NCBI GenBank assembly: GCA_965208655.1
Contig: CBDBPJ010000003.1
Coordinates: 551,790 to 615,789, forward strand
Source: Gammaproteobacteria bacterium
Lineage (GTDB): Bacteria > Pseudomonadota > Gammaproteobacteria > Eutrophobiales > Eutrophobiaceae
Length of the DNA: 64,000 nucleotides
Reading direction: 5' to 3'
The translations under genes and the position numbers were made by a program. Below the pieces are notes generated by a model that was not told where the DNA came from, searched no databases, and was given only the letters and a program-made list of their open reading frames with translations. How positions within the stretch are numbered: the stretch's first letter is position 1; every line of letters starts with the position of its first letter. Shown here piece after piece: positions 41,745 through 56,928 of the stretch.

Positions 41745-41765
41745 GCCCTGATCGGTATCAGGGGA
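41745..41765. terminator. Short GC hairpin (ccctgat-cggt-atcaggg) between convergent genes
   Basis: 7-bp stem overlapping the tannase-2 stop codon; no T-tract. Confidence 0.25.
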
Positions 41766-43383
41766 CAGCGCAGGTATAGCTATCCATTTTTGCGGTATCC
41801 CCGCGTCCGCGGTATACGGCAATTTCAGGGTACGGGCAAAGCGGGTGTTCCCGTCCCGTTTCAGCGTCTTCAAGCTCGATTGCCCTAATCTGTTCCGGCG
41901 CAGTGCCGCCTTCCACCCAGTTGATCAGGGCGGTCATCCCGTCAAAGCGGTCGGCGCCCAATCCGCCCCAGCAGTGGAAACCGCCGGGCACCATGAACAG
42001 CCGAAAAAAAGAAGCGGTGTCTTCACCCATACCGGCAACGACCTGCTCATAGTAATCCACGCTGATTTGAGGGTTGACCCCCGCGTCCGCCCAACCGTGA
42101 TACAACAGCAGCTTTGCGCCGCGCGCGCGGAAGCTGCTGAAGTCCGTGGAGTTGGCATCCATGATGTCAGACATGGCTTCAAGGCGCGGCAAGGTTTCCT
42201 TTACGTCCAGTTCGCGCCAGTCGATGGTTTCATCGTCTTTTTCAAAGGCAAGATATTTCAGCCAGGAATCGACGATGGCGATTTGCTCACTGAACCCCCG
42301 TTCGTCGGGAAATACCCGGCGCCACCAGGGGGACCGGTCCGGCACCGGCTCAAACGTGGCAAATTTATAATGACGGCCGCTTGGCTCCGAACCTACCGGT
42401 ATCCCCGGCGCAACCTGCACGCCGTCAACGACCAGGCCGTTATATATCCTTGCCAGGGCTTCGATTTCCGTAGCGGTGAAACCGGTTTTGCCCGAGGCAT
42501 CAAGGGGCAGGTCCCGGGCCGGGTCAAAATCAATCGCCAGCGGGTTTTCAATGACACCGTCCGCCACCTTGTCCAGTTCGTCATATTTGGCCATGATGAC
42601 TTTCCCCAGCAACTCGACGCGATCCGCATCGAACCGGCCCTGCAGTTGCGCCATCTGGTTATTCCAGGCGTACAGCACGCTCCTGACGAAATCAAATACC
42701 GGAGAGCCAACCAGGATACCGTCGTAATCGGCCGGATAGCGCAGCGCCGCCTTGATGCCCTGGCCGCCGGCGGTGGAGCAGCCATCGTAGTATGAATAAC
42801 TGACCGGCTTGCCGTAATACATCGCCGCCAGCCGTTTGCTGACGACGGTAGTCAGGTGCAGGGCGCGGAAGCTGTAATCGACCTCCTTGTGAATGGCGTT
42901 GTGTGCCCAGGTGCCGCCCGGTTCGGTATCCTGGTCGTGGCCGAGATTGCTGAAGGCGGTAGCGAACCCGTTGCGCAAGGCGCGCCGGCGATCGTCCAAC
43001 CCGTAGTTGCCGTATACCGAATGACCTCCGTAGCCGCCGTTGCCATGGACATACAGACGCCGGTTCCAGTCAGCCGGCAGGTTGGTGCGGTATTGAATTT
43101 CCGGGGCGATGACCCCTGTCACTTCGCATGATTCAGGTGCGGCTTCAGTTGCAGGAACAAGCCTGGCGCTGATGACGCTGTGGTCGAAATCGGTCACGGA
43201 CATCAGTTCCCTGCAGGCCATGGCGGGAGTGACGTCGCGCTGGCGGTAGTCGATCCCTGAAAGCTCCGCGTCCATGAAACTCCAACTGTTGGTTTCCGCT
43301 ACGCTGTGCAAATGGCCGAGTGACAGGATTGTGAAAACCATCCATTGCGTTAATCGGGTGGTTTGAAATGCCGGCAGGTTCAT
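41758..43383 (-). CDS. Secreted tannase/feruloyl-esterase-family hydrolase (paralog 2)
   Basis: Signal peptide; GCSTAGG motif; strong similarity to paralogs 1, 3 and 4. Confidence 0.8.
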   Translation of the reverse strand: MNLPAFQTTRLTQWMVFTILSLGHLHSVAETNSWSFMDAELSGIDYRQRDVTPAMACRELMSVTDFDHSVISARLVPATEAAPESCEVTGVIAPEIQYRTNLPADWNRRLYVHGNGGYGGHSVYGNYGLDDRRRALRNGFATAFSNLGHDQDTEPGGTWAHNAIHKEVDYSFRALHLTTVVSKRLAAMYYGKPVSYSYYDGCSTAGGQGIKAALRYPADYDGILVGSPVFDFVRSVLYAWNNQMAQLQGRFDADRVELLGKVIMAKYDELDKVADGVIENPLAIDFDPARDLPLDASGKTGFTATEIEALARIYNGLVVDGVQVAPGIPVGSEPSGRHYKFATFEPVPDRSPWWRRVFPDERGFSEQIAIVDSWLKYLAFEKDDETIDWRELDVKETLPRLEAMSDIMDANSTDFSSFRARGAKLLLYHGWADAGVNPQISVDYYEQVVAGMGEDTASFFRLFMVPGGFHCWGGLGADRFDGMTALINWVEGGTAPEQIRAIELEDAETGREHPLCPYPEIAVYRGRGDTAKMDSYTCAVP

Positions 43384-44564: not shown

Positions 44565-45614
44565 CGGTAACTATTAAGTCGAGGTCGATTATGTACATTG
44601 GTATTCGTATTTGCGGGTTGCTGGCGGCTCTTATCCTGGGCAGTTTAAATGGCGCGAATGCAGGTGACTGGCCCGTGCACAGCGGTGACAAGAAAGGCAC
44701 GCGTTATTCCCTGTTGGAACAGATCACCCCCGATAACGTGGATAAACTGGAAGTTGCCTGGCGTTACCGCACCGGAGAGAAAGAGCGGCGCGGAGAAAAA
44801 GCATTTGAACAGAGTAAGGATCAAAGCATTCCCCTGCTGGTTGCCGGTAATTTAATCATCTGCACCCCGTTTAACCGCATTATCGCCCTGGACCCGGCCA
44901 ACGGAAATGAACGCTGGGTATTCGACCCCGAGATTCCCCTGGACCTGGTGGAGCCCACTACCTACGGTTGCCGTGGCGTGGCTTACTGGCGAGATGAAAG
45001 CAGCACTGATGCAGAGCCGTGCCATGAACGCCTGCTGTTCGGCACCAATGATCTGCGCATGTTCGCAATCGACGCGAAGACAGGAAAACGCTGTACGGAA
45101 TTCGGTGATGGCGGCGTCGTGGACCTGCCGCCGAGCAAACCCGAACTGTACCGTGGTGAAGTCCAGTACGCGTTTCCTCCCATCGTGGTTAACGGTATTG
45201 TCGTACTGGGCTCGACGATCGGCGATAACCAGCGTATCGATACACCCAGCGGCAAGGTACAGGCCCTGTCGGCAAAAAACGGGGAAAAGCTGTGGGAGTT
45301 CGAACCGATCCCCAGGTCGGCAGCGGACCCGGCCTTTGCTACCTGGGGTAATAACAGCGCCCTGGTAAACGGCAGCGCCAACGTCTGGTCCAACATGGCC
45401 GCGGATGAGGGGCGGGACATGGTGTTCCTGCCGGTCTCCACGCCCGCGCCGGATAATTACGGCGGTACGCGGCCGGGCAATAACGAATACGCAAATTCAC
45501 TGGTGGCATTGAGAGGCAGCACCGGTGTCAACAGGAAATTAAAATGTCCACTTTTCAGGATTCTAAAATGTCCCCTGGTGGATAAAGAAATGGCTGTGTC
45601 AATCATCTTGTGAA

Positions 45615-46397
45615 TCAGTCCGTATCTGGCAACTGTTCCGGTTTCATTACCGGCGCCCGCCCCAATAACCCCGCCTTGCGCTTCTCCTTCAACCGGTAAC
45701 TCTCACCCTTGATATTCAGGGTGGTGGCATGGTGCAGCAAACGGTCCAGGATCGCCGTGGCCAGCACCTGGTCACCGAAGATCTCGCCCCAGTCGATGAA
45801 GCTCTTGTTGGAGGTGAGGATGAGGCTGGCCTTCTCATAGCGGCGTTGGATGAGCCGGAACAACAAACTGGCATCCTCCCGGGACAGGGGCAGGTAGCCC
45901 ATTTCGTCGAGTATAAGGACTTTGGGGTAGACCCATTGCTGCAGTTGTTTCTCCAGGCGGTTCTCATCCCGGGCCCGTTTCAGTTTGCTGAGCAGGTTGT
46001 CCAGGGTCAGGAACAGGACCCGGTGCCCGGCTTCCACGGCTTTCACGCCCAGGGCGACGGCCAGGTGCGTCTTGCCCACTCCCGGCGGTCCCAGCAGGAT
46101 GACGTTCTCGCCCCGTTCCACAAACGCCAGGCCCGCCAGGGTCTTGACCAGTTTGCGGTCCAGGCTCGGCTGGAACGTGAAGTCGAACTGTGCCAGGGTC
46201 TTCACCCAGGGCAGGCGCGCCTGCCGCAGTCGGCTGTCCACCCCGTTAACGTGGCGTCCCTGCCATTCGACCCGTAAGGCCTCGGTTAAAAAGGCCGGAT
46301 AATCCCATTCCTGTTTGGCGGCCTGTTCACACACCGTCTCCAGTTGTGCCGGCAGGTGCTGGAACTTCAGCTTCGTCATTAATTGTGTCAGTTCCAT
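45615..46397 (-). CDS. istB: IS21 IstB helper ATPase (AAA+)
   Basis: GPPGVGKTHLA Walker A; start MELTQLM overlaps the istA stop. Confidence 0.9.
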   Translation of the reverse strand: MELTQLMTKLKFQHLPAQLETVCEQAAKQEWDYPAFLTEALRVEWQGRHVNGVDSRLRQARLPWVKTLAQFDFTFQPSLDRKLVKTLAGLAFVERGENVILLGPPGVGKTHLAVALGVKAVEAGHRVLFLTLDNLLSKLKRARDENRLEKQLQQWVYPKVLILDEMGYLPLSREDASLLFRLIQRRYEKASLILTSNKSFIDWGEIFGDQVLATAILDRLLHHATTLNIKGESYRLKEKRKAGLLGRAPVMKPEQLPDTD

Positions 46398-47554
46398 TGT
46401 CCCGCCTCCTCGTACGCAGCCAACTCCCGTCGCTCTACCTGCAAGGCCTCCCGCCACAGCGCTGCATGATGGGCCGGGATACTCTGCCAACCGGCGCCGG
46501 CCGGGCGCAACCGGTGCTCGGCAATACACCGGTCCTGGCCGTCCACCACGCGTAAGCGGTCATCCAGGCCGATGTGCACCGTCACCGGTTGACCACAGTA
46601 CACTGCCGGCACACTGTAGCGGTTGCCGCGCACCTCGATATACCCGTCCCAGGCCACAAACCGCTGTTCCCGGTAAGCCGTATCAAAACGCACCGTCGGT
46701 AAGGGGGATAACTGTCCACGCTCTGCCTCAAACCGGTCTATGACGCGCTGCCGATGCGTCCCGTGCATGCGTGGGTCCGCCTCGTCCCGTAACCAACTCT
46801 CCAACTGCTGGTTCAGATGCGCCAGGGTCTCAAACTGCCGGTAGCGCACAAAGAAGTGTTCCTTCACATAACGCACCATGCGTTCGGTCTTGCCCTTGGT
46901 GCGCGCCCGGTACGGCCGGCACGCCTTCGGCATAAATCCGTAATGCCCCGCCAGGTCCAGAAAACGCGGATGAAACTGCACGCCTTCCCCCACTCGATGC
47001 GCAATCACCGCCGACTTCTGGTTGTCCACCAGCACCGTCTTCGTTACACCGCCCAGGTACGCAAAACTGCGCACCAGACACTCATAGGTGTGCGCCGCAT
47101 CCTGACTGACCGTGCCCCACACATGAAACCGGCGCGAATACCCCAGCGTGTTCACCGCAATAAACACCTTCTGCTCAAGTCCGCCTATCGCCGTCCAGAC
47201 TTCGCCCCAGTCATGCTGTAACTGCTCCCCTGGCCCAGTCTCAAAACGCACCGTCGCCCGGCTCGCACGCAACGGACGCTTGGGCCGGATATAGGCCCGG
47301 ATCAAACTCACTTCACCCGGATAACCCTGTCCCTGCAACTCGCGCTGAATCACCATCGCATTCCACACCCCCGCCTGCAACAACCGGTCTATCGCCGGCT
47401 TGTACGGGTCCAGAATACTGCCCCGGGCACGCGGCCGTTTCCCGGCCGGCGCACCGCCTCGCTTCAATGCCCGACTCACCGTCCTGGGGTGTACCCCCAG
47501 CTCCCCGGCAATGTCTTTGATATACACCCCGTCGTCGTGTTTGTGTTGTATCAT
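46388..47554 (-). CDS. istA: IS21 IstA transposase (HTH + DDE)
   Basis: N-terminal HTH IAGELGVHPRTVSRAL; start MIQHKHD preceded by GAGGAG RBS. Confidence 0.9.
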   Translation of the reverse strand: MIQHKHDDGVYIKDIAGELGVHPRTVSRALKRGGAPAGKRPRARGSILDPYKPAIDRLLQAGVWNAMVIQRELQGQGYPGEVSLIRAYIRPKRPLRASRATVRFETGPGEQLQHDWGEVWTAIGGLEQKVFIAVNTLGYSRRFHVWGTVSQDAAHTYECLVRSFAYLGGVTKTVLVDNQKSAVIAHRVGEGVQFHPRFLDLAGHYGFMPKACRPYRARTKGKTERMVRYVKEHFFVRYRQFETLAHLNQQLESWLRDEADPRMHGTHRQRVIDRFEAERGQLSPLPTVRFDTAYREQRFVAWDGYIEVRGNRYSVPAVYCGQPVTVHIGLDDRLRVVDGQDRCIAEHRLRPAGAGWQSIPAHHAALWREALQVERRELAAYEEAGQWN

Positions 47555-48851
47555 CAGATAGTCTCCTCGCTTGAGCATCGGTTATCTCCTGTTCTTGAAC
47601 AAAACAAGAAGGTAACCCCGATGCTCGGGTTGAGGGGACTTTTTAGTTTCCTGATATGGGGACTTTTAACATACTTGCTGACACCGGTGAAATGATCTGG
47701 CACTATCAAATCCTGCACCACACGATCTGGGACTACGACCTTGCGCCCCAGCCCCTGCTGGTTGATCTGCCCCGTGACGGGGAGATGGTGCCGGTGGTGG
47801 TGCAGAACACCAAGCAGGGCTTGATCTTTGTTTTTCACCGTGAAACGGGGGAGCCGTTTTTCCCCATTGAAGAACGGCCGGTGCCCCAGGGCGATGTGCC
47901 GGGCGAATGGTACTCCCCGACACAACCGTTCCCGGTAAAACCGCCGCCTTTGATCAAACCTACTGTAACGCCGGACGACATGTGGGGATTCACCTTCTGG
48001 GACAAGGGCAAGTGCCGCGAGACGCTGGAAACACTGCGTTACGGGGACATGTATACACCGCCAAGCCTGCAGGGGAGCGTGATCAGCCCCTGGACCGGCG
48101 GCGGCGCCAACTGGGGCGGCCCGGCCTTTGACCCAGAACGCGGCCTGATGATCATCAACACCAGCCGGGTCATGAAGGTTTCCAAACTGGTGCCCATAGA
48201 GGAAGCCGATAAAGACACGAAAGGTGATGACTTTCACTATGGCCCCGCGGAAAAAATGCACGGGACACCGTATGCGATCAAGGACCAGTTGTTCGTATCT
48301 CCATGGGGCGCTCCCTGTAACACACCGCCCTGGGGCGGCCTGACCGCGGTTAACCTTGCCGAAGGTACAATCTCGTGGGATGTCCCGCTGGGTTCCATCG
48401 AAGATCATCTTCCCCTGCCAATCCCCTGGAACCTGGGTATGACGAATATCGGCGGTCCGATCATCACCGCCAGCGGCCTGATCTTCATCGCCGCGACAAT
48501 GGACCAGGTCTTTCGAGCCTTTGATATAGAGACCGGTGAGGAGTTATGGCGTGACAAGTTGCCTGCGACCACCATGACAACGCCCATAACCTACGAGGTT
48601 AACGGCAGACAGTATATTGCCGTGGTCTCGGGGGGGCATGGTGAGGTCCCCAGCGTCAGGGGTGACTATGTGCTGGGTTATGCCTTACCTGCGGATTAAC
48701 TCCCGCGGGGTGAACTAATCATCTGTTCCAGGGGACACCCTTCAACATCGCCACCTACTCTTTGTTTCTTTGCCGAATGGATTAAACCTTCGCAGCGCCA
48801 TACAGAAGGACGGCTGCAAATAAGATGACAATCACACACAGCGCTATCATT

Positions 48852-49070
48852 TCAATCATAGGGTTCTGATTTCTTCGATGAGTTGATTAATTCGTAATCC
48901 CGATCCAGGGATATCGTCATCTTGACTTTTGCCGGTTTACCTTTTTCATCCTTGAGTTCCGGCAACAGGCCGCGACGCTTCACTTTCAGTTTTTTCAGGT
49001 CATATTCTTCGCGCATAATCTTCTGCCTTGCGATGGGTTGTTTTACGTGTCGAAATGATGCGGATGGCAT
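48852..49070 (-). pseudogene. Truncated brnA-like (RHH, COG3514-type) antitoxin gene fragment
   Basis: MREEYDLKKLKVKRRG...KVKMTISLDRD matches the BrnA N-terminal pattern, then diverges and stops; shares a 118-bp repeat with 53482-53598. Confidence 0.4.
48921..49037. repeat. Direct repeat copy 1 (~118 bp, 60-bp perfect core 48969-49028), paired with 53482-53598
   Basis: Core gccgcgacgcttcactttcagttttttcaggtcatattcttcgcgcataatcttctgcct is identical in both copies. Confidence 0.7.
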
Positions 49071-49110
49071 TCCCGGCGCCTATAGCGGTTTGATCACGGG
49101 ACGGAATTCC

Positions 49111-49410
49111 TTAAGCAGCTATGGTCCTCCGGACAAACTCAGGATCAGCCTGAATCAGACGCAGGTAATTTGAGGCAGCCGCATCGGGGGAGCGTTTACC
49201 CTGTTCCCATCCTTTTAGTGTGTCCAGGCTCAGGTGGTAAGAACGCGCAAACACGGCTTGCGACATGTTTACCTTTCGCCGAATCGCCTTGATCGTCGCA
49301 GGTGTTATCACCAGATAAGCAGTTTCGGGCGTTATTTTGCCTTTGGCTACCTCTACTGCTTCTTTCAGGTTGGCTTCGAGTTCGTTGAATAACTTGTCGT
49401 CCACGCTCAT
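49111..49410 (-). CDS. XRE-type HTH antitoxin (COG2944/YiaG-like), apparently orphan
   Basis: ITPATIKAIRRKVNMSQAVFARSYHLSLDTLKGWEQGKRSPDAAASNYLRLIQADPE matches the COG2944 antitoxin pattern; no intact toxin ORF upstream. Confidence 0.55.
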   Translation of the reverse strand: MSVDDKLFNELEANLKEAVEVAKGKITPETAYLVITPATIKAIRRKVNMSQAVFARSYHLSLDTLKGWEQGKRSPDAAASNYLRLIQADPEFVRRTIAA

Positions 49411-49680
49411 CCCCTAACCGAATTCATCGATAATTTGATCTACATACTTTTTCAAACATACCGATTGGAACGAGTATCTGCATCTTGCATCGTTTTTCCT
49501 GTAACCCTTACTGTGGTTCATTGAACCCTGAAAGTCAATAAGTTACCTCAAAACTGAACCATCTGGATCAGACGAACCCGTCGACTTCTGTGATACCCTT
49601 TGGCAGTATGAACAAGCTTTTCAGCCCTGATATTATCCAGAATGTAACCGCACTGATGTTCGCATAGGTTGGAATTGATA

Positions 49681-50760
49681 ATGCGTGTCGGAAAGAAGCA
49701 AGTTCTCTTAGTTGCAATCCTCCTGTCATTTATCATTGTATTGACAGCCATCTTCCTGGCGTATTGCTCGTATCGTTACGACAAGGTAATGGAAGTTGAT
49801 ATTTCTGCCGGTATCAACGAGGGGATGTATGAAACCATTGGCGGCACGCAACAATGGATTCAGATAAGAGGCAGAGACAGGAGTAACCCCGTCATTTTGT
49901 GGCTGAACGGAGGCCCGGGGTTTTCTACTATTCCGCAAACGTTCTTCCATGTGCCGTTGGAAAAGGATTTTACCGTGGTCATGTGGGACCAGCGTGGAGA
50001 GGGCAAATCCTACGCATTCACCGGTCCCTCCATCGCCCCGACGATGACTATAGAGCGGATGGCTGCTGATGGGGTGGAGCTTGCCGAGTTTCTAAAACAA
50101 CATCTTGGTGTCGACAGGATTGTGATTATGGGACATTCCTGGGGGTCGATACTTGGTGTACGCATGGCACTGATGCGGCCGGACCTGTTTTCAGCCTATA
50201 TCGGCACCGGGCAGGTTGTCGGTCTCAGGGAAGCGATGGAACTGGAATATCCGTCGATCCTGGATATGGCTCGTGAGACGGGAAATGAGCAGTCAGTTGA
50301 GGAATTGGAGGCTGCCGGACCTCCACCATACAGCAGGGTTAATGACTACATGATTCCTATTCGATGGGCGAATGCTTTCGATGCCGTAGCACCGTCGGAA
50401 CCCGGTCTTGGTAACACACTTTCTGCCATCTGGGCCTTTTTCAGGTTGTTTGTTTTGACTGATAGATCAGTCCGGGAGGGCATTGTGTTTTCGCAAAAAT
50501 TAATGCTGGAACCGATGCTTGATGAAGATGTTCCCGGGCTTGGAACTGACTTTGACATTCCGGTTATATTTATTCAGGGTAGTGAGGATAAACTGTCTCC
50601 GACCGCAATGGTTCGACAGTATTACGAATCTATCTCTGCTCCGGAAAAGAAAATGATTGTCCTGGACGATGCCGGACATTTGGCCATTCTCAGAAATCGA
50701 GCGCTGTTTAGAGATGCACTGTTAGGTATTAAGCCTTTGTTAACCGCAAATGAAGGATAA
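49681..50760 (+). CDS. Membrane-anchored alpha/beta hydrolase (proline-iminopeptidase/S33-like)
   Basis: N-terminal TM helix; GHSWGS nucleophile elbow; ATG at 49681 preferred over the TTG at 49669. Confidence 0.7.
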   Translation: MRVGKKQVLLVAILLSFIIVLTAIFLAYCSYRYDKVMEVDISAGINEGMYETIGGTQQWIQIRGRDRSNPVILWLNGGPGFSTIPQTFFHVPLEKDFTVVMWDQRGEGKSYAFTGPSIAPTMTIERMAADGVELAEFLKQHLGVDRIVIMGHSWGSILGVRMALMRPDLFSAYIGTGQVVGLREAMELEYPSILDMARETGNEQSVEELEAAGPPPYSRVNDYMIPIRWANAFDAVAPSEPGLGNTLSAIWAFFRLFVLTDRSVREGIVFSQKLMLEPMLDEDVPGLGTDFDIPVIFIQGSEDKLSPTAMVRQYYESISAPEKKMIVLDDAGHLAILRNRALFRDALLGIKPLLTANEG

Positions 50761-50854
50761 GTGTTTGCTAAGGCGAATTTAGATTAATCCAATATGATTA
50801 TCGCCGTCGTTCGACTCAGACTGATTTCACTTCCTGAAACGCAGACCTGCAGCT

Positions 50855-51103
50855 TCAGGGCAACTCATCGCCCGAGCGTGGAAGTTCTCCACCGGACCGA
50901 AACAGAAGAGAGCGAAAAGCGTCCATATCGGCTTCATTCATCTTATTCAAAAAAAATTGCTCGGTTTCCAGCACCGAAATCTTTTCAGCTACCGCAATGG
51001 TAATAAACTGGTTCATGCTGGATCCGTCCCGTTTGGCCACCTTGGCGACCTTGTCTTTCAAAGATTTCGGCAGTCTCAGTGGATAGGTTGATAAATCAGC
51101 CAT
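50855..51103 (-). CDS. Ribbon-helix-helix (Arc/MetJ-type) DNA-binding protein, putative antitoxin
   Basis: YPLRLPKSLKDKVAKVAKRDGSSMNQFITIAVAEKI RHH pattern; overlaps the PIN gene stop by 8 nt. Confidence 0.5.
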   Translation of the reverse strand: MADLSTYPLRLPKSLKDKVAKVAKRDGSSMNQFITIAVAEKISVLETEQFFLNKMNEADMDAFRSLLFRSGGELPRSGDELP

Positions 51104-51524
51104 TTCTCACCCTCCTCAAGGCTACCGCAGGGTTAATTACCGCAATATTAAACATATCCGACACTTTGGCATAATCACGCAGGTTAAACGTCACGATGGC
51201 GTCTGCCTGACCGTTAACAGCGACCTCAAGCACCATTTCGTCATTAGGGTCTCTCAGGAAAGGCCGCCATAAAAAATGTGTCTTGACCGGTTCGATCAAA
51301 GCTGTAAGTCCGCTCACAAAAACAAGCGCCTGTTCCTGGTTCAACCCTGCCGCTATCCAGTGTTCCCGGGATGTGCATTTCGCTTCGTACTCAAAGAACA
51401 ACGGCACGCTGGCCAGCATTTTGAGTCGCTTGTCTAATACTTCGCCCAGCAAAGCGGAAGAAGCTCCAGTCGGGCTGCGCATCGCTGCGACAATGACATC
51501 CGTGTCTAAAACATATCTATGCAT
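51096..51524 (-). CDS. PIN-domain (VapC-like) putative toxin
   Basis: Start placed at MHRYVLDTDVIVAAMRS (PIN N-terminal acidic motif); ~143 aa. Confidence 0.55.
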   Translation of the reverse strand: MHRYVLDTDVIVAAMRSPTGASSALLGEVLDKRLKMLASVPLFFEYEAKCTSREHWIAAGLNQEQALVFVSGLTALIEPVKTHFLWRPFLRDPNDEMVLEVAVNGQADAIVTFNLRDYAKVSDMFNIAVINPAVALRRVRNG

Positions 51525-51629
51525 GATGGTTAACAATACATCATATATGATATCATAGCAACTATCTTGGCTACATTTTTTTCCCGCATCTGTAATAGGA
51601 ATATGGGGTCGGACCACTCCGGCTCCGCG

Positions 51630-51923
51630 TCAGGCAACTTCAAGCTTTTCGAAATCGTCGAAGTTGATCTTCTGCCGCGCTTCCCATAAATCGAAGTTAT
51701 CCTGCATAGCCAACCAGCTTTCCGGGGACCTGCCGATGACTTTGGACAGCTTGAGCGCCATGGTCGGTGTGATGCTGCCCTTGGCGTTGAGAATCCGGCT
51801 CATCACGGATTCACTGATCCATAACCTCTCGGCCAGACCTTTCGCGCCGATGTTGAAGGGTTCCAGATAGACCCGTTTGATAAAGACTCCCGGATGCATG
51901 GGATTATGTTGCTTGATACTCAT
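51630..51923 (-). CDS. HigA-family HTH antitoxin (COG3093-like), orphan
   Basis: HPGVFIKRVYLEPFNIGAKGLAERLWISESVMSRILNAKGSITPTMALKLSKVIGRSPESWLAMQ matches the HigA pattern; no HigB ORF upstream. Confidence 0.65.
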   Translation of the reverse strand: MSIKQHNPMHPGVFIKRVYLEPFNIGAKGLAERLWISESVMSRILNAKGSITPTMALKLSKVIGRSPESWLAMQDNFDLWEARQKINFDDFEKLEVA

Positions 51924-52323
51924 TAGTGATAATCCTCATAATCTATGGCATTAACGTCGCAATATAGACGAGATCGCTGACATGTCGCGATTGTTCCATA
52001 AGATTTCATAGAATCGACGAACCTGGGCTTTTTGTTCGACCATGAGCATTTAATGCGATTTTATTCACCGTTTCCGGACTTGATTTAATACTTTTTACTT
52101 CCCTGGTATTTTTGGACTAATCAGGTGGCAGAAGTTTTTTCTCGCAAATTCAACATCTGCTTCATCAAGGGATTGAGTGAATAATTTTTTTCTTCAGGTT
52201 GCACCATTTTTGGTTCTTCTTGTTATTGACGTTCTCCAGGGTCATCATACTACCTCAATCATCTATATGAGAAACTTGGGCAGGCCAAACCGCTAATTCG
52301 GACAGTCAAGCTCAACGAAAGCT

Positions 52324-52653
52324 ATGAATAACGACTACGTAATTGAGAAACTTACAGATGCAATGGATGCGCTCACAACGGGACGTGGAGATGTTCGTTC
52401 CCGTATAAAAAATGCCTACTCATTAATGCATACAGTTCGCGAGAGTGATTTTCCAGACAATCTGAAAGAGGACTGGGTCTGGATATATGGAGAAATTACA
52501 AAATGTGGCCCTTTGCTCGGGCCTAATGGTGAAGTTTGGCTTAGCAGCGTAGAGAATACTATGCGATCTATCAGGAACATAACCGGACAACGAATAGCTC
52601 GGCGTATTTCTAAACTATATTGGGAGATAAGTAAGAATGAAAAATATTCCTGA
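52324..52653 (+). CDS. Hypothetical protein, AT-rich, no recognisable domain
   Basis: ATG start; 109 aa; lowest-GC stretch of the window. Confidence 0.3.
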   Translation: MNNDYVIEKLTDAMDALTTGRGDVRSRIKNAYSLMHTVRESDFPDNLKEDWVWIYGEITKCGPLLGPNGEVWLSSVENTMRSIRNITGQRIARRISKLYWEISKNEKYS

Positions 52654-52843
52654 AAGACAGCAAATTACAGCGTGCGACCCAGATTGTCAGTTTGATATAC
52701 GATAAAAAATGTTACCACCTAGCCATACTTCTAGAACCCCTGAAGATATAGTAAGTAAAGAATTATATTTCGATTCTATAGGACATTTATATCGAGCAGT
52801 GTCCTAGCTTGACTACTTTGAAAGGAATGATCAGTTTACAGCT

Positions 52844-53386
52844 TTGATATATGCGTGTATTGAAGCGCGTTTTGGAATAGAAAACTTAATATTTGAAGAA
52901 ATTGTAATTTCAACAGGCGCCAACCTTTCAAAAGAAGATTATGAAAAATGCTTAAACAATCCAACAAATTTAAATAGCGCGTTAAAAAAAATATCCCCAG
53001 AATATGAAAAACTACAAGAATTTACGCAGTTAATTGTGAGCTTGAGTCCTGAATTTCCAAGGATAATACAGTGGGAGCCACGGAAGCTGATTAAATCATG
53101 GGGGAAAATATCCAAATATCTACACTGGTGTGGAAGTAGGAGCGAGACCACTGATTTATCTAGCTGGAGAGCCAGCGTTGGAAGAGCGATGAGAGGAGAA
53201 ATTGCACCAATCTGGAATAAGATTACTTCTGGTCATAGTGGGTGTATGCATCCTGATGATATGCATCCCAAAATTTCGGAACTATGGGGCCAATTCAAAA
53301 GTGGCGATATCGATACTGAAAGCGCAAAAATACGGATGCTAATATTAAAACCTTTGTTGCGGCTGGACAGGGTAGGAGTTGCCTGA
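52844..53386 (+). CDS. Hypothetical protein, AT-rich, no recognisable domain (TTG start in track; start uncertain)
   Basis: 180 aa ORF in a very AT-rich context; in-frame stop at 52805 leaves only a TTG start. Confidence 0.3.
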   Translation: MIYACIEARFGIENLIFEEIVISTGANLSKEDYEKCLNNPTNLNSALKKISPEYEKLQEFTQLIVSLSPEFPRIIQWEPRKLIKSWGKISKYLHWCGSRSETTDLSSWRASVGRAMRGEIAPIWNKITSGHSGCMHPDDMHPKISELWGQFKSGDIDTESAKIRMLILKPLLRLDRVGVA

Positions 53387-53481
53387 CTGTTTGTTCTATA
53401 CGGAGACTTATGATGGATTATTCTACTCTCTGAATTTGGTGCCAGTTGCAAATTTAGACTACTACACAGTCAGGATATTGT

Positions 53482-53598
53482 CCTGACTTTTGCCGGCGTC
53501 CTTTTTTTGTCGTTGAGTTCCGGTAACATGCCGCGACGCTTCACTTTCAGTTTTTTCAGGTCATATTCTTCGCGCATAATCTTCTGCCTAGCGACGGG
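53482..53598. repeat. Direct repeat copy 2 (~118 bp; perfect core 53530-53589); encodes a second, shorter brnA-like N-terminal fragment on the minus strand
   Basis: Reverse-strand translation gives ...ARQKIMREEYDLKKLKVKRRGMLPELNDKK... then stop. Confidence 0.7.
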
Positions 53599-53618
53599 AG
53601 TGCCGTACACCGGGTCCG

Positions 53619-55220
53619 TTATTGACAGGTGAAATTTTCCGCCTCGTCGGTACTGCCATTACCCTCATAAACAGCCACTTCAGGGTACGGACACAGCGGC
53701 CGGGTACGCACAACTTCACCGTTTTCGATCCGTGCAGCGTCTATCCGTTCGGGTACTACTCCCGCTTCAACCCAATCAATCAGCGTGGTCATAACATCAA
53801 AGTGGTCAACATTACGGCCACCGCGGCAATGGAACATGCCGGGCACCATGAAAGTGCGGAAAAATGAATGAGTTTCCTCGCCCATCGCCTCCATGACCTG
53901 TTCATAGTACTGCACCGTCATGATCGGACTCACCCCCACGTCAGCCCAGCCGTGGTACATGAGGATCTTGTTTCCCCCATCCATAAAAGGACTCAGGTCC
54001 GTAGCCGTGGCATTCATGATCCGGCCCATTGGCTGCATTTTCTCCAGATCGCCCTCCATGTCCAGTTCTTTCCAGTCATAATCGGGGTCGTCCGTAGTAA
54101 ACGCCATGTACTTGAGCCAGGATTCGAGTATTTCCAGGGTCATGTTATACCCGGTGCCTTCGCGGTAAACCCGCGCCGACCAGGGTGAGGCTTCACTGGT
54201 TTTTTCATAGGTTCGACCCGCATCACGCACGCCGGGCAGTTCCGCACCTACGGGCAGACCCGGTGCGACCTGCCTGTCGCCGATGCGGGGGCCCTGGTAA
54301 ATCCGGGTAAATGCCTCGATCTCCGCATCGGTAAAGCCGTTTTTACCCTCCGGGTCCCGGGGCAGGTCCCGGGCCGGCACGAAATCGACAGCCAGGGGGT
54401 TGCCTATCACGCGGTCTGCAACGCCGTCCAGTGCGTCGTATTTCTCCATGATTATCTCTCCCAGCATGTGCACCCGTTCGGCGCTGAGCGGTATCTTGTC
54501 CGCCGTTGCCTGGTTCCACCAGGATTGCATCTCGATGGTCGGCAAATCGTAAAACGGCGCGCCCACGGCAATGCCGTCAAAATCATCCGGGAAGCGCTGG
54601 GCCGCAACCAGACCCTGGCGCCCGCCGCCGGAACATCCTTCGAAGTATGCATAGGTGGGTTCCTGTCCGTAATAACGGGAGATCAGTTGTTTTGCGACCA
54701 CGGCCGTCAGGTGAACGGCGCGATAACCGTAGTCAATTTCCTTCTGGATATTATTGTGCGCCCACGAGGCGAAGTGCGCATCATCGGTATGGCCCGTATT
54801 GGTGAACGCGGTGGCAAAGCCCAGGCGCCGGGCCTTGGCCCTGTCTTCCCTGGCGTAATCGCCGTAAACGGATTGCCCGCCAAACCCGCCGTTGCCGATC
54901 ATGTACAGGCGTCCGTTCCACTGCTTCGGCAGGTTGACGACATACTGTATCTCCGGCGTGATGACGCCGTAAACTTCACAGTGCTCGGACGAATTCTCAT
55001 CGGCAGGGATGGTTTTTGCGGAGATCACGCTGTGGTTGTAATCCGTCAGGCTCACAAGCCCGCGGCAATCTCCCGTCGCGGTTACAGCAGCAAGGTGGTA
55101 GTTAACACGACCATTACCTGCATCAGCGAAACTGGCGCCGTTTACATCCGCTCCAATCGTTACGGCAGGCGCCAGGCACAGCAAACCGGAGATGATCAAG
55201 ATATTTTTTTTCAATGACAT
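53619..55220 (-). CDS. Secreted tannase/feruloyl-esterase-family hydrolase (paralog 3)
   Basis: Signal peptide; GCSGGG motif; tandem with paralog 4. Confidence 0.8.
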   Translation of the reverse strand: MSLKKNILIISGLLCLAPAVTIGADVNGASFADAGNGRVNYHLAAVTATGDCRGLVSLTDYNHSVISAKTIPADENSSEHCEVYGVITPEIQYVVNLPKQWNGRLYMIGNGGFGGQSVYGDYAREDRAKARRLGFATAFTNTGHTDDAHFASWAHNNIQKEIDYGYRAVHLTAVVAKQLISRYYGQEPTYAYFEGCSGGGRQGLVAAQRFPDDFDGIAVGAPFYDLPTIEMQSWWNQATADKIPLSAERVHMLGEIIMEKYDALDGVADRVIGNPLAVDFVPARDLPRDPEGKNGFTDAEIEAFTRIYQGPRIGDRQVAPGLPVGAELPGVRDAGRTYEKTSEASPWSARVYREGTGYNMTLEILESWLKYMAFTTDDPDYDWKELDMEGDLEKMQPMGRIMNATATDLSPFMDGGNKILMYHGWADVGVSPIMTVQYYEQVMEAMGEETHSFFRTFMVPGMFHCRGGRNVDHFDVMTTLIDWVEAGVVPERIDAARIENGEVVRTRPLCPYPEVAVYEGNGSTDEAENFTCQ

Positions 55221-55222
55221 GA

Positions 55223-56812
55223 TTATTCACACCTGAAACTGTCCGCCCGGTTGCTGTCCCCTGAACCCTGGTAACGCGCCGCCTTCGGGTAAGGGCACAG
55301 GGGACGGGTGCGGGTAACGCGATTATTTTCAACTCTGGAGGCGATAATCCGGTCCGGCGCGACATCCGCCTCCACCCAGTTTATCAGCGTCGTCATGGTG
55401 TCAAACCGGTCCACGTTGCGGCCGCCGTAGCAATGGAACATGCCGGGTATCATATACGTCCTGAAAAAAGACTGTGTTTCCTCATCCCCCATCGTCTGCA
55501 TGACCTTGTCGTAATACTGCACGGTCATGATGGGGCTGACGCCGATATCCCCCCAGCCGTGATACATGAGCAGCTTGCCGCCGCTGTTGCTGAAAGCGGA
55601 GAGGTCAGGGTTATCGGCATTGAATATGGCTGACATCGCCGCCATGCGGGGCCAGTCTTTTTCCGGGTCCAGTTGGTGCCAGTCAAAGTCCGGATCATCT
55701 GTTGTAAAGGCCATATACCGCAACCACGGGACTAATATGTCCAGTTGCTGATTGTAACCTGAAATATCCGGGTAGAGGCGGGAATTCCACGATGACAGCA
55801 TGGGGGATTTGTCTGCAGTGCGGGCCGCGTCCCGTCTTCCCGGCAATTCCGCCCCGGCCACGATACCTGGCGCGATTTGTTTACCATTCAACTCCAGTCC
55901 TGCGAAGAGCCGCTGCAGGGTCTTGATCTCGGCGCGGGTAAACCCATCCCGGCCTGTTTCATCCCCGGGCAGGTCGCGTGCCGGGTCGAAGTCGATTTCC
56001 AGGGGATTGCTGATGATGCCGTCCCGCAGGCCGTCCACCGCATCGAACCTGTCCATGATGAACTTCCCCAACTGTTCAACCTTTGCCGCGGACAGGGCCG
56101 TTTCGGCCAGCGCTACCTGGTTGTTCCAGTATTGCATCATAATGCCGGCCAGGTCGTAAAACGGCGCGCCCGCGGCAATACCGTTGAAATCGCCGGGAAA
56201 TCGCTGTGCGGCGACCAGGCCCTGGCGGCCGCCGCCTGAACAGCCGTCAAAATAGGAGTAAGTGGCAGGTTTGCCGTAGTAGGCCGTTACCAGGCGCTTT
56301 GCCGTCACAATCGTCAAATGGACCGCGCGAAAGCCGTAATCGATTTCTTTCTGCAGATCGTTGTGGGCCCAGCTGGCATTATGCCCGTCGTCACGGGTAT
56401 GCCCGGTATCGGTAAAGACCGTGGCAAATCCCTGGCGCAGCGCCGGACCGGATAATTCAGCGCCGTAGGACCCGGTGACGGACTGGCCGCCGTATCCGCC
56501 GTTGCCGTGCATGTAGATACGCCGGTTCCAGTTGTCCGGTAATTTGAGCATGAACTGGACCTTGGGCTCGATAATTCCATAGATGGCGCACAGTCCGGGC
56601 AAACCGTCAGCGGCTTCAACCTCCGTGGCTGAGATAACGGCGAAATCAAAGTCCGAATGGCGGCCCAGTTCACTGCATTTGAGCGCCGGGACCGCAGAGC
56701 CGGCAGCGAGGTCCACGGCAATCTCGCTTGCCGCAAGAAAATTCCCGCCATGTGTGGCTTGTGCTGATACCGGCGCAGGCAGGCAACTGCAGTAAATCCC
56801 GATAATAATCAT
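55223..56812 (-). CDS. Secreted tannase/feruloyl-esterase-family hydrolase (paralog 4)
   Basis: Start placed at internal ATG MIIIGIYCSC (signal peptide); GCSGGG motif; 2-nt gap to paralog 3. Confidence 0.8.
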   Translation of the reverse strand: MIIIGIYCSCLPAPVSAQATHGGNFLAASEIAVDLAAGSAVPALKCSELGRHSDFDFAVISATEVEAADGLPGLCAIYGIIEPKVQFMLKLPDNWNRRIYMHGNGGYGGQSVTGSYGAELSGPALRQGFATVFTDTGHTRDDGHNASWAHNDLQKEIDYGFRAVHLTIVTAKRLVTAYYGKPATYSYFDGCSGGGRQGLVAAQRFPGDFNGIAAGAPFYDLAGIMMQYWNNQVALAETALSAAKVEQLGKFIMDRFDAVDGLRDGIISNPLEIDFDPARDLPGDETGRDGFTRAEIKTLQRLFAGLELNGKQIAPGIVAGAELPGRRDAARTADKSPMLSSWNSRLYPDISGYNQQLDILVPWLRYMAFTTDDPDFDWHQLDPEKDWPRMAAMSAIFNADNPDLSAFSNSGGKLLMYHGWGDIGVSPIMTVQYYDKVMQTMGDEETQSFFRTYMIPGMFHCYGGRNVDRFDTMTTLINWVEADVAPDRIIASRVENNRVTRTRPLCPYPKAARYQGSGDSNRADSFRCE

Positions 56813-56928
56813 CACCCTTGAGAAACAGGTGCGAAGCACCGGGAATAATCCCCGGGAGTGAAGCTGTTTAGCGCGCATGGAAGTCAGTCACCTTGGTCGC
56901 TGTCCGAAAAACATTTTATTTGCGGAAA

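What the first reader, a model, noticed from the sequence alone, without database searches (positions are those of the whole stretch)
48852..53598. Low-GC island bracketed by ~118-bp direct repeats derived from a brnA-like gene start, filled with orphan antitoxins, a toxin-first PIN-RHH pair and unannotatable ORFs
Repeats at 48921-49037 and 53482-53598 share a 60-bp perfect core and are ~85% identical in the flanks. Each encodes the start of a BrnA-like RHH antitoxin (MREEYDLKKLKVKRRG...), and both copies are truncated. Between them lie an orphan COG2944 HTH antitoxin, an alpha/beta hydrolase, a PIN gene followed (not preceded) by an RHH gene, and an orphan HigA. Upstream of HigA is a 33-codon remnant of a SnoaL-like N-terminus (...VRRFYEILWNN...). 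Then come the two most AT-rich ORFs of the window (52324-53386), which have no recognisable domains. GC drops sharply relative to the flanking tannase and PQQ genes. The pattern suggests an integration/decay hotspot, or a defence island assembled by recombination between the brnA-like repeats. The unrecognised ORFs are the best candidates for novel functions here, for example abortive-infection or toxin genes.
Basis: partly seen in the sequence, partly recalled or inferred. Interest (0 to 1): 0.65.

Follow-up and report, generated by a model that had tools for sequence, protein, structure and literature searches.

The report
Decaying toxin–antitoxin cassette island
This low-GC stretch is a strain-variable "graveyard" of toxin–antitoxin and defence-gene cassettes in an uncultured gammaproteobacterium whose relatives include sponge and coral MAGs; the two repeats are stubs of two brnTA operons, and the pieces carry scars showing they came from a larger cassette array next to the thyA gene.

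Summary
A 118-nt direct repeat (106/118 identical, 60-nt perfect core) brackets a segment of 45% GC between a PQQ-dehydrogenase gene and a tannase gene (57-58% GC). The repeats are not attachment sites. Each is the 5' stub of a separate brnT-brnA operon. The left one is intact in two sister genomes. The right one is shared with a third genome and is fused to a fragment of an AT-rich cassette. Six related haplotypes differ module by module, and toxin genes (brnT, relE, PIN, higB) have been lost through different deletions, leaving orphan antitoxins. Only PIN_3-RHH looks intact here. Junctions carry scars of the thyA 3' end and of the sequence that follows the thyA stop codon. In related genomes the same modules sit in the thyA-folA spacer, flanked by 115-273-nt thyA 3' repeats. 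A 1.75-kb block on the right was exchanged recently with another lineage (98.3% against 93.6% identity). The two "unannotatable" ORFs belong to conserved, uncharacterised families found in defence islands. They are separable, and the larger one carries a window-specific stop at a nearly invariant Trp. Overall this is an ordinary kind of island with an unusual, traceable origin.

The parts
48852..49016 (-). brnA' (left stub). The first ~38 codons are homologous to intact BrnA, followed by an out-of-register tail. The 3' part of the gene is deleted. Carries the left repeat copy 48920-49037.
   Evidence: Aligns with intact brnA of L001 and L002 at 93%. No Pfam hit for the stub. Intact L001 BrnA hits PF14384 at 7e-11.
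49001..49071 (-). Remnant of the brnT 3' end (last ~24 codons). The rest of brnT and its promoter (347 nt in L001) are deleted.
   Evidence: Window 48897-49071 matches L001 14735-14561. L001 14214-14560 is absent from the window.
49071..49095 (+). Scar of the thyA 3' end (last ~7 codons plus stop), lying just before the NadS stop codon.
   Evidence: Window 49071-49457 matches L028 9165-9551 at 88.6%, and L028 9165-9187 is the end of an intact 264-aa thyA.
49111..49410 (-). Orphan NadS/MqsA-like HTH antitoxin.
   Evidence: NF041265 at 8.9e-19, HTH_3. Paired with an intact RelE in L002 and L028.
49411..49564 (-). Remnant of the RelE-family toxin of NadS, with a 254-nt internal deletion.
   Evidence: The window lacks L002 13319-13572. 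L024 lacks a different stretch, L002 13328-13508. The intact L002 protein hits PF06296 RelE.
49669..50760 (+). Alpha/beta hydrolase cargo gene. It is absent in L002 and replaced by an SDR gene in L024.
   Evidence: Abhydrolase_1 at 3.4e-18.
50855..51103 (-). Arc/RHH antitoxin of the PIN_3 toxin.
   Evidence: Arc at 1.3e-5, 25.4 bits against a cut-off of 20.4. It is retained in L002, L010 and L024, where the PIN gene is truncated.
51096..51524 (-). PIN_3 toxin gene. It looks intact, comes first in the operon, and overlaps the RHH gene by 8 nt.
   Evidence: PF13470 at 4.4e-18, TIGR00305 at 1.8e-12. The L001 orthologue is 144 aa.
51602..51619 (+). Junction motif 'M' (TATGGGGTCGGACCACTC). This is a copy of the sequence that follows the thyA stop codon in related genomes. 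It is the only copy in the window.
   Evidence: In L027, M lies 24 nt after the thyA stop and directly after each thyA' repeat.
51630..51923 (-). Orphan HigA antitoxin. Only ~9 codons of higB remain upstream (51924-51951).
   Evidence: TIGR02607 at 9.3e-27. An intact HigB-HigA pair is present in L003.
51951..52049 (-). 32-codon remnant resembling the N-terminus of an ester cyclase / SnoaL-like protein (weak).
   Evidence: 8 tblastn hits at E = 2-7, all on 'ester cyclase' genes. No Pfam hit.
52150..53470 (+). AT-rich cassette fragment (GC 0.39). It is an internal 1.32-kb piece of a 2.2-kb unit (PDDEXK_4 nuclease, ORF109, ORF225) found at 90-97% identity in unrelated defence-island contexts.
52150..52208 (-). 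Stub (~19 codons, frameshifted) of the PD-(D/E)XK_4 nuclease gene.
   Evidence: Homology to L013 5826-5884. L013 4985-5884 hits PF14281 at 5.7e-7. The reading of the stub comes from the sequence.
52324..52653 (+). ORF109: intact, conserved, five-helix protein of unknown function.
   Evidence: 17 homologues. AF2 pLDDT 85. dN/dS 0.20-0.26. No match in Pfam, NCBIfam, PADLOC or PHROGs.
52709..53386 (+). ORF225: a member of a conserved ~222-aa all-alpha family, interrupted here by TAG at 52805-52807 (Trp33 to stop, plus Met32 to Val).
   Evidence: All seven other copies compared are intact. The family has 237 representative clusters. AF2 pLDDT 87.
53473..53598 (-). brnA'' (right stub: ~36 codons plus ~22 nt of the brnT end). 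It is fused directly to the end of the cassette and lies 20 nt from the tannase stop. Carries the right repeat copy 53481-53598.
   Evidence: The same stub is present in L010.

Best explanation
The segment is a strain-variable, decaying array of type II toxin-antitoxin cassettes plus a defence-island fragment. It lies between a PQQ-dehydrogenase gene and a tannase gene in an uncultured gammaproteobacterial lineage whose relatives include sponge- and coral-derived MAGs.

Shown:
- The two repeats are the 5' stubs of two separate brnT-brnA operons.
- The modules (brnTA, relE-nadS, PIN_3-RHH, higBA) and their junctions match cassette arrays in the thyA-folA spacer of related genomes. There each module sits between direct repeats of the thyA 3' end.
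- Relatives differ module by module.
- Toxin genes were removed by different deletions, while antitoxins persist.
- The right-hand 1.75 kb is much closer to another lineage than the flanking core genes are.

Inferred:
- The array was assembled at thyA by recombination between the repeated thyA 3' segments. A circular intermediate would explain the permuted module order.
- A copy moved into the PQQ-tannase spacer.
- Toxins were then lost first, because losing an antitoxin alone is lethal.
- Haplotypes are swapped between lineages by homologous recombination in conserved flanks.

Present-day function is probably limited to one PIN_3-RHH addiction module, orphan antitoxins that may act as regulators or anti-addiction factors, a hydrolase cargo gene, and ORF109.
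For: Repeats and stubs. Intact BrnT and BrnA at the left position in L001 and L002.

Haplotype comparison (L001, L002, L003, L004/L024, L010).

Different toxin deletions:
- relE: 254 nt lost in the window, 181 nt in L024.
- brnT: 347 nt lost in the window, an in-frame 231-nt loss in L024.
- PIN and higB.

thyA scars and the M motif at junctions.

Native thyA loci with repeats and the same modules:
- L027: thyA, then two 271-nt thyA' repeats, each followed by M.
- L028: thyA | NadS-RelE | thyA' (273 nt) | BrnA-brnT | thyA' (115 nt) | folA.
-.

folA 5' remnants lie next to HigA in L002 and L024.

Recent exchange: 1591/1618 identical inside 51924-53598 against 1500/1602 in the tannase gene (Fisher p = 4e-12). 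Mismatch density changes at ~51870 and ~53630.

No integrase, attC site or RNA family in the island.
Against: - The window itself keeps only a 23-25-nt thyA scar and one M motif, so the link to thyA rests mainly on relatives.
- No circular intermediate, recombinase or donor-recipient pair was observed. The direction of transfer (thyA locus to tannase locus) is inferred.
- All sequences are metagenome assemblies. A chimeric join between co-existing strains inside HigA would look like the mosaic.
- The relE deletions in the window and L024 are nested and could be successive rather than independent.
Confidence: 0.75

Rival explanations
1. A discrete integrative island whose ~118-bp brnA-derived direct repeats are attL and attR. 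A site-specific recombinase inserted the 4.4-kb unit into brnA and can excise it.
For: Direct repeats in the same orientation bracket a low-GC segment.
Against: - No integrase or recombinase gene in the island.
- Relatives vary piecewise, never all or none.
- The left copy continues into an intact brnTA in L001 and L002.
- L010 has the right copy without the left one.
- The copies differ by 10%, and the perfect core is equally conserved in all orthologues.
Confidence: 0.04
2. One reading: an active defence island put together by homologous recombination or unequal crossing-over between brnA copies, with the two AT-rich ORFs acting here as a working novel toxin or abortive-infection pair.
For: - Module order in relatives looks circularly permuted, and HigA and brnA can be duplicated.
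- Homologues of ORF225 and ORF109 sit next to ThsB-like TIR, SIR2, GmrSD, Mokosh-like helicase and NACHT-like genes.
- dN/dS is 0.2-0.3.
Against: - The recurrent junction sequences are thyA-derived, not brnA-derived.
- ORF109 and ORF225 occur apart from each other in other contexts.
- The window's cassette is truncated at both ends, its nuclease gene is reduced to a stub, and ORF225 has a stop at a nearly invariant Trp.
Confidence: 0.12
3. Assembly artefact: the contig is a chimera of two co-existing strain haplotypes (L001-like on the left, L010-like on the right) joined in the shared HigA gene, so both repeat copies never sit on one chromosome.
For: - The window comes from a lineage known only from metagenomes.
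- The change in identity falls inside a conserved 300-bp gene.
Against: - PIN/RHH-HigA adjacency is seen independently in L002 and L024.
- Both outer flanks (PQQ gene and tannases) are syntenic on one chromosome in L001 and L002.
- Identity falls back to ~94% right after the tannase stop, as expected for a recombination tract.
Confidence: 0.06

Closest known systems
Defence / toxin-antitoxin islands at chromosomal hotspots, and the known enrichment of TA and restriction-modification genes in sponge-symbiont genomes (PMC5649159)
   Same: Low-GC, strain-variable cluster of type II TA modules and defence-associated genes between conserved core genes, with IS elements nearby. HigAB and VapC-type modules are typical.
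   Different: The cassettes carry scars of one particular core gene end (thyA). That traces them to a second, larger hotspot in the same lineage. Most modules are degraded.
Degraded TA loci and orphan antitoxins (review PMC7354431)
   Same: Orphan NadS, HigA and, in relatives, RHH and BrnA persist after the toxin is lost. This matches the view that most orphan antitoxins are remnants of complete systems.
   Different: Here the intact ancestors and several different deletion alleles of the same toxin genes can be seen side by side in sister genomes.
Tandem accretion of integrative elements at the 3' end of a gene (cis-mobilisable elements flanked by att repeats) and integron cassette arrays (comparison from my own knowledge)
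   Same: In the related thyA loci, each cassette is flanked by direct repeats of the target gene's 3' end. Module order is permuted, as expected from circular intermediates.
   Different: - The repeats are long (115-273 nt).
- No integrase gene lies within 10 kb.
- No attC-like sites.
- RecA-type homologous recombination may be enough to explain the pattern.
PIN_3-RHH_6 TA pairs of Tn3-family transposons (PMC7157771)
   Same: A PIN_3 toxin with a ribbon-helix-helix antitoxin.
   Different: The gene order is reversed (toxin first, 8-nt overlap). The antitoxin hits Arc/HicB-type RHH models. No Tn3 transposase, resolvase or paired inverted repeats are present.
BrnT/BrnA type II TA system (Pfam PF04365 / PF14384)
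   Same: The sister genomes carry a complete toxin-first brnT-brnA operon with overlapping genes at the site of the left repeat.
   Different: The window has only two 5' stubs of brnA and the last codons of brnT. There is no toxin domain and no RHH domain.

Membership tests
BrnT/BrnA type II TA | Gene with a BrnT_toxin (PF04365) domain upstream of the antitoxin gene | tested here: not met
   Only ~24 (left) and ~7 (right) terminal codons of brnT remain in the window. The intact L001 BrnT scores 2.1e-24.
BrnT/BrnA type II TA | BrnA_antitoxin (PF14384) C-terminal RHH domain | tested here: not met
   The 72-aa ORF at 48852-49070 has no Pfam or NCBIfam hit. Both stubs end at about codon 36-38, before the domain. 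L001 BrnA scores 7.2e-11.
HigB/HigA type II TA | HigA HTH antitoxin | tested here: met
   TIGR02607 at 9.3e-27.
HigB/HigA type II TA | HigB toxin gene directly upstream | tested here: not met
   Only ~28 nt of the higB 3' end remain. L003 has an intact HigB, PF05015 at 6.9e-19.
RelE-family toxin / NadS (MqsA-like) antitoxin | Antitoxin together with an intact upstream RelE-fold toxin | tested here: not met
   NadS is present (8.9e-19). The toxin has a 254-nt internal deletion compared with L002.
VapBC-like PIN_3 / RHH TA | PIN-domain toxin and a DNA-binding antitoxin in one overlapping operon | tested here: met
   PIN_3 at 4.4e-18, Arc at 25.4 bits (cut-off 20.4), 8-nt overlap. The order is toxin first, unlike the antitoxin-first order of Tn3-borne PIN_3-RHH_6 pairs.
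VapBC-like PIN_3 / RHH TA | Toxicity of the PIN protein and its neutralisation by the RHH protein | not testable with these tools
   Indirect only: relatives keep the RHH gene when the PIN gene is truncated.
Integron cassette array | attC sites (RYYYAAC ... GTTRRRY imperfect palindromes) between cassettes | tested here: not met
   No pair of core sites 40-150 nt apart on either strand of 48600-53700.
Integrative island with att repeats | Tyrosine or serine recombinase gene within or beside the island | tested here: not met
   No recombinase domain in any island ORF. The nearest mobility genes are IS21 istA and istB, inside the PQQ gene.
Integrative island with att repeats | All-or-none presence in relatives, with a single repeat copy at the empty site | tested here: not met
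   Six haplotypes show piecewise variation and none has an empty site.
Defence / TA island at a variable hotspot | Cluster of TA or defence genes of atypical composition between conserved genes, variable among close relatives | tested here: met
HEPN-domain RNase (considered for ORF225) | Rx4-6H motif in the last helix of a four-helix bundle | tested here: not met
   The residues conserved across the family are R54, E58, F105 and H139. The Arg and His lie 85 residues apart.
HEPN-domain RNase (considered for ORF225) | HEPN fold | tested here: inconclusive
Tn3-family transposon / TIME (considered for motif M) | Paired terminal inverted repeats with a transposase or 5-bp target duplication | tested here: not met
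   M copies share one orientation, apart from one doubtful site. No similar plasmid sequence. M is the native flank downstream of thyA.

The most novel reading that the evidence does not exclude
In this uncultured gammaproteobacterial lineage (several of the related MAGs and metagenomes are sponge-derived), the thyA-folA spacer acts as an integron-like, integrase-free cassette platform. Direct repeats of the thyA 3' end always start at thyA position 523 (residue 175), follow a conserved leader, and are up to 273 nt long. They flank TA and defence cassettes. They would let the cassettes excise as circles, re-insert by single crossover, permute, and seed satellite islands such as this one. ORF225, and separately ORF109, would be new stand-alone defence-island gene families carried by this pool.
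Probability: 0.3. Interest if true: 0.65.

Novelty: new member of a known kind. Interest (0 to 1): 0.42.

Why it matters
As it stands, the island is a textbook-quality natural series showing how chromosomal TA modules decay. The toxin goes first, by different deletions in sister genomes, and the antitoxin stays. It also shows how haplotypes of such islands are swapped between lineages.

The wider interest lies in the scars. They tie the island to thyA-anchored arrays in which repeated copies of a core gene's 3' end separate TA and defence cassettes, with no recombinase in sight. If that proves to be a general way of shuffling cassettes, it would add a mechanism for building defence islands. 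It would also give two uncharacterised protein families (ORF225 with 237 representative clusters, and ORF109) a testable context.

Tried and rejected
- Plasmid origin: no megablast match for 44-58 kb.
- Phage origin of ORF225 and ORF109: no tblastn match in phage or plasmid records, no relatives in IMG/VR, and no BFVD fold match.
- Integron: no attC-like sites.
- Known RNA families in the island and in the L013 spacers: none.
- Gene conversion as the cause of the 60-nt perfect core: rejected, because the same stretch is nearly invariant in all six copies.
- ORF109 and ORF225 as an obligate two-gene system, with the PDDEXK_4 nuclease as a fixed third partner: rejected. Each gene occurs alone in other contexts, although a 2.2-kb three-gene unit recurs in three contexts.
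- ORF225 as HEPN or DUF4145: the motif is not met and the fold evidence is generic.
- Pfam, NCBIfam, PADLOC, PHROGs and PDB sequence searches on both ORF families: nothing.
- Motif M as a Tn3-type inverted repeat or a genome-wide REP element: rejected. It occurs once in 64 kb and is the native thyA-downstream flank.
- The afdb50 fold library was unavailable.
- An exact-sequence look-up of the tannase found no identical gene on record.

Full report
**1. Observation**

- The window holds a 118-nt direct repeat at 48920-49037 and 53481-53598. It is 106/118 identical, with a 60-nt perfect core (48969-49028 / 53530-53589) and flanks that are 46/58 identical.
- The 48-nt core occurs exactly twice in the 64 kb, against none expected.
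- GC is 0.453 across 48852-53598 and 0.393 in 52150-53470. The flanks are 0.570 and 0.585.
- Profile searches confirm the gene content:
  - an orphan NadS/MqsA-like HTH protein (49111-49410, minus strand);
  - an alpha/beta hydrolase (49669-50760);
  - a PIN_3 gene (51096-51524, minus) followed by, and overlapping by 8 nt, an Arc/RHH gene (50855-51103, minus);
  - an orphan HigA (51630-51923, minus).
- The flanks are a PQQ-dehydrogenase gene, split by an IS21 element, and two tannase genes.

**2. What the repeats are**

A scan of one genome per species found close relatives. All are uncultured Gammaproteobacteria MAGs, and two come from sponge (Aplysina) and coral (Porites) samples.

- L001 and L002 carry an intact toxin-first brnT (92 aa) and brnA (101 aa) operon next to the PQQ gene, exactly where the window has its left repeat. 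Pfam scores are BrnT_toxin 2e-24 and BrnA_antitoxin 7e-11.
- The repeat unit is the last ~22 nt of brnT plus the first ~36-38 codons of brnA.
- The left copy is that operon after two deletions. L001 14214-14560 (the 5' part of brnT and its promoter) and L001 14736-14904 (the 3' part of brnA) are missing.
- The right copy (53473-53598) lies 20 nt from the tannase stop and is present in the same truncated form in L010. L010 has no left copy and has a different left flank.
- The first ~55 nt of brnA are nearly invariant in all six copies compared. The perfect core therefore reflects general conservation, not gene conversion.

**3. A variable hotspot, not a unit**

In window orientation the haplotypes read as follows:

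| Haplotype | Order of modules |
|---|---|
| L001 | PQQ, brnA-brnT, NadS-relE', hydrolase, RHH-PIN, tannase |
| L002 | PQQ, brnA-brnT, NadS-RelE (intact), RHH-PIN', HigA, Phd-HTH, tannase |
| L003 | OCD, HigA-HigB (intact), a 473-aa gene, VapC and AbrB-type pairs, tannase |
| L010 | OCD, RHH, a 423-aa gene, HigA, AT-rich cassette, brnA'', tannase |
| L024 / L004 | HigA', Phd-HTH, NadS-relE', SDR, RHH-PIN', HigA, IS21, brnA (brnT deleted in frame), gp49-HI1420, tannase |

No haplotype shows an empty site or a single hybrid brnA. Toxin genes are lost through different lesions:

- relE lacks 254 nt in the window and L001 but 181 nt in L024.
- brnT lacks 347 nt at the window's left copy, 231 nt in frame in L024, and nearly everything at the right copy.
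- PIN is truncated in L002, L024 and L010.
- higB is absent everywhere except L003.

The antitoxins persist. This matches the published view that most orphan antitoxins are remnants of complete systems (PMC7354431). TA enrichment in sponge symbionts is also established (PMC5649159).

**4. Where the cassettes came from**

Short conserved sequences recur at the module junctions.

- One is the 3' end of a thymidylate synthase gene ('...AHPSIPAPIAV*'). It always sits on the same strand and always faces the stop codon of a convergent antitoxin gene. Copies are at window 49071-95, L001 and L002 (111 nt), L002, L024 and L010 (41-43 nt), and L003 (41 nt).
- The other is an 18-nt motif, M. It occurs once in the window, at 51602-51619, and at junctions in L001, L002, L010, L024 and L012-L016.

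The native thyA loci explain both.

- L027 is the thyA locus of L001's own chromosome. It has lgt, an intact thyA, M 24 nt after the thyA stop, and then two 271-nt copies of the thyA 3' end (positions 523-793), each followed by M. Cargo genes lie in between, up to folA.
- L028 has thyA, then NadS-RelE, thyA' (273 nt), brnA-brnT, thyA' (115 nt), cytochrome b and folA.
- Window 49071-49457 matches L028 9165-9551 at 88.6%, starting in the last 23 nt of the intact thyA.
- Window 48897-49071 matches the L028 brnTA at 92%.
- L001 14182-14911 matches L028 thyA'(115)-brnT-brnA at 91.9%.
- The spacer between PIN and tannase in L001 is 86% identical to the flank downstream of thyA.
- 42-nt folA 5' remnants lie beside HigA in L002 and L024.
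- The module order in the window (brnTA, thyA', NadS-RelE) is a circular permutation of the L028 order (NadS-RelE, thyA', brnTA, thyA').
- No recombinase gene lies within 10 kb of thyA in L027 or L028.
- The 120 closest database relatives of the ThyA fragment are all short fragments. About 40 of them begin at ThyA residue 174-175 (28 at 175, 8 at 174), and the closest ones share a conserved non-ThyA leader.
- One such fragment sits inside a large defence island with TIR, SIR2, PLD and a Mokosh-like helicase.

I infer that the island is a translocated, decayed piece of the lineage's thyA-anchored cassette array. I also infer that homologous recombination between thyA' repeats shuffles the cassettes. 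Neither step was observed directly.

**5. Recent exchange**

Against L010, positions 51924-53598 are 1591/1618 identical. HigA is 93.5% identical and the tannase gene 1500/1602 (Fisher p = 4e-12). Mismatch density switches near 51870 and 53630. So a ~1.75-kb block was exchanged recently between lineages, with breakpoints in HigA and at the tannase 3' end. This block holds the higB tail, the ester-cyclase-like remnant, the AT-rich cassette and the right brnA stub. The left half is as diverged from L001 as the core genes are.

**6. The AT-rich ORFs**

- 52150-53470 matches six other contigs at ~90.5% identity, in different surroundings.
- It is an internal piece of a 2.2-kb unit consisting of a PD-(D/E)XK_4 nuclease gene (divergent), ORF109 and ORF225. 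That unit is 97% identical across three contexts.
- In the window the nuclease gene is reduced to ~19 frameshifted codons. The unit's tail is cut where it is fused, within 2-3 nt, to codon ~36 of brnA.
- ORF225 is really 225 codons long. The window alone has TGG to TAG at the nearly invariant Trp33, plus Met32 to Val. All seven other copies are intact.
- Both genes are under purifying selection (dN/dS 0.20-0.30) and give confident all-helical models (pLDDT 87 and 85).
- Neither matches Pfam, NCBIfam, PADLOC, PHROGs, PDB sequences, phage or plasmid records, IMG/VR or BFVD.
- ORF225 homologues also occur without ORF109: after a ThsB-like TIR gene, after a SIR2 gene near GmrSD, and between hemH and grpE.
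- An ORF109 homologue occurs without ORF225, beside a NACHT-like gene and a UvrD helicase.
- So these are separable single-gene families associated with defence islands. Their function remains unknown. My best guess is a stand-alone defence or abortive-infection role for ORF225, and I rate that at about one in four.

**7. Verdict**

The 'integration/decay hotspot' reading is supported. The 'assembled by recombination between the brnA repeats' reading and the 'discrete island' reading are not. As a kind of object, this is an ordinary TA and defence island in a lineage known to be rich in them, and most of its content is degraded. What is unusual is that its origin can be traced, through thyA and folA scars, to repeat-structured cassette arrays at thyA. 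I did not find that arrangement described in the searchable literature, and it deserves a dedicated survey.

Noticed in passing
window 45528-47681: An IS21-family element (istA 46388-47578, istB 45615-46529, both on the minus strand) interrupts the PQQ-dehydrogenase gene. The target CACCGGTG (or CCGG within it) is duplicated. L001 has the uninterrupted gene.
   Followed up: yes
L027 2553-10253; L028 8393-11061; L013 8348-8635; L029 10001-10288: Related genomes carry 115-273-nt direct repeats of the thyA 3' end, starting at thyA position 523 after a conserved non-thyA leader. These repeats separate TA and defence cassettes between thyA and folA, with no recombinase gene nearby. The 120 closest database relatives of the ThyA fragment are all short fragments.
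   Followed up: partly
window 48782-48859 (minus strand): A 25-codon hydrophobic ORF (MIEMIALCVIVILFAAVLLYGAAKV) lies between the PQQ gene and the left brnA stub and is conserved in L001. Its first 26 nt recur exactly in L013 7203-7228, just before the M motif. It could be a small membrane peptide or simply junction sequence.
   Followed up: no
window 53469-53487: The join between the cassette and brnA'' forms a perfect 7-bp inverted repeat (GTCAGGA TATTG TCCTGAC). One arm belongs to brnA. It may be a trace of how the join was made, or it may be chance.
   Followed up: no
L011 6013-8678; L020 3861-5666: ORF225 homologues lie directly downstream of a ThsB-like TIR gene (PADLOC 1.9e-69) in one contig and of a SIR2_2 gene in another. 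In neither case is a recognisable partner effector or sensor present.
   Followed up: partly
L010 5481-6752; L003 14144-15565: Two large genes (423 and 473 aa) with no Pfam match occupy the same hotspot in sister genomes.
   Followed up: no
window 41758-43383, 53619-55220, 55223-56878: Three paralogous tannase / feruloyl-esterase genes lie within 15 kb, next to a DctP-type solute-binding protein gene and an ABC/FtsX exporter. The cluster looks devoted to breaking down aromatic esters.
   Followed up: no
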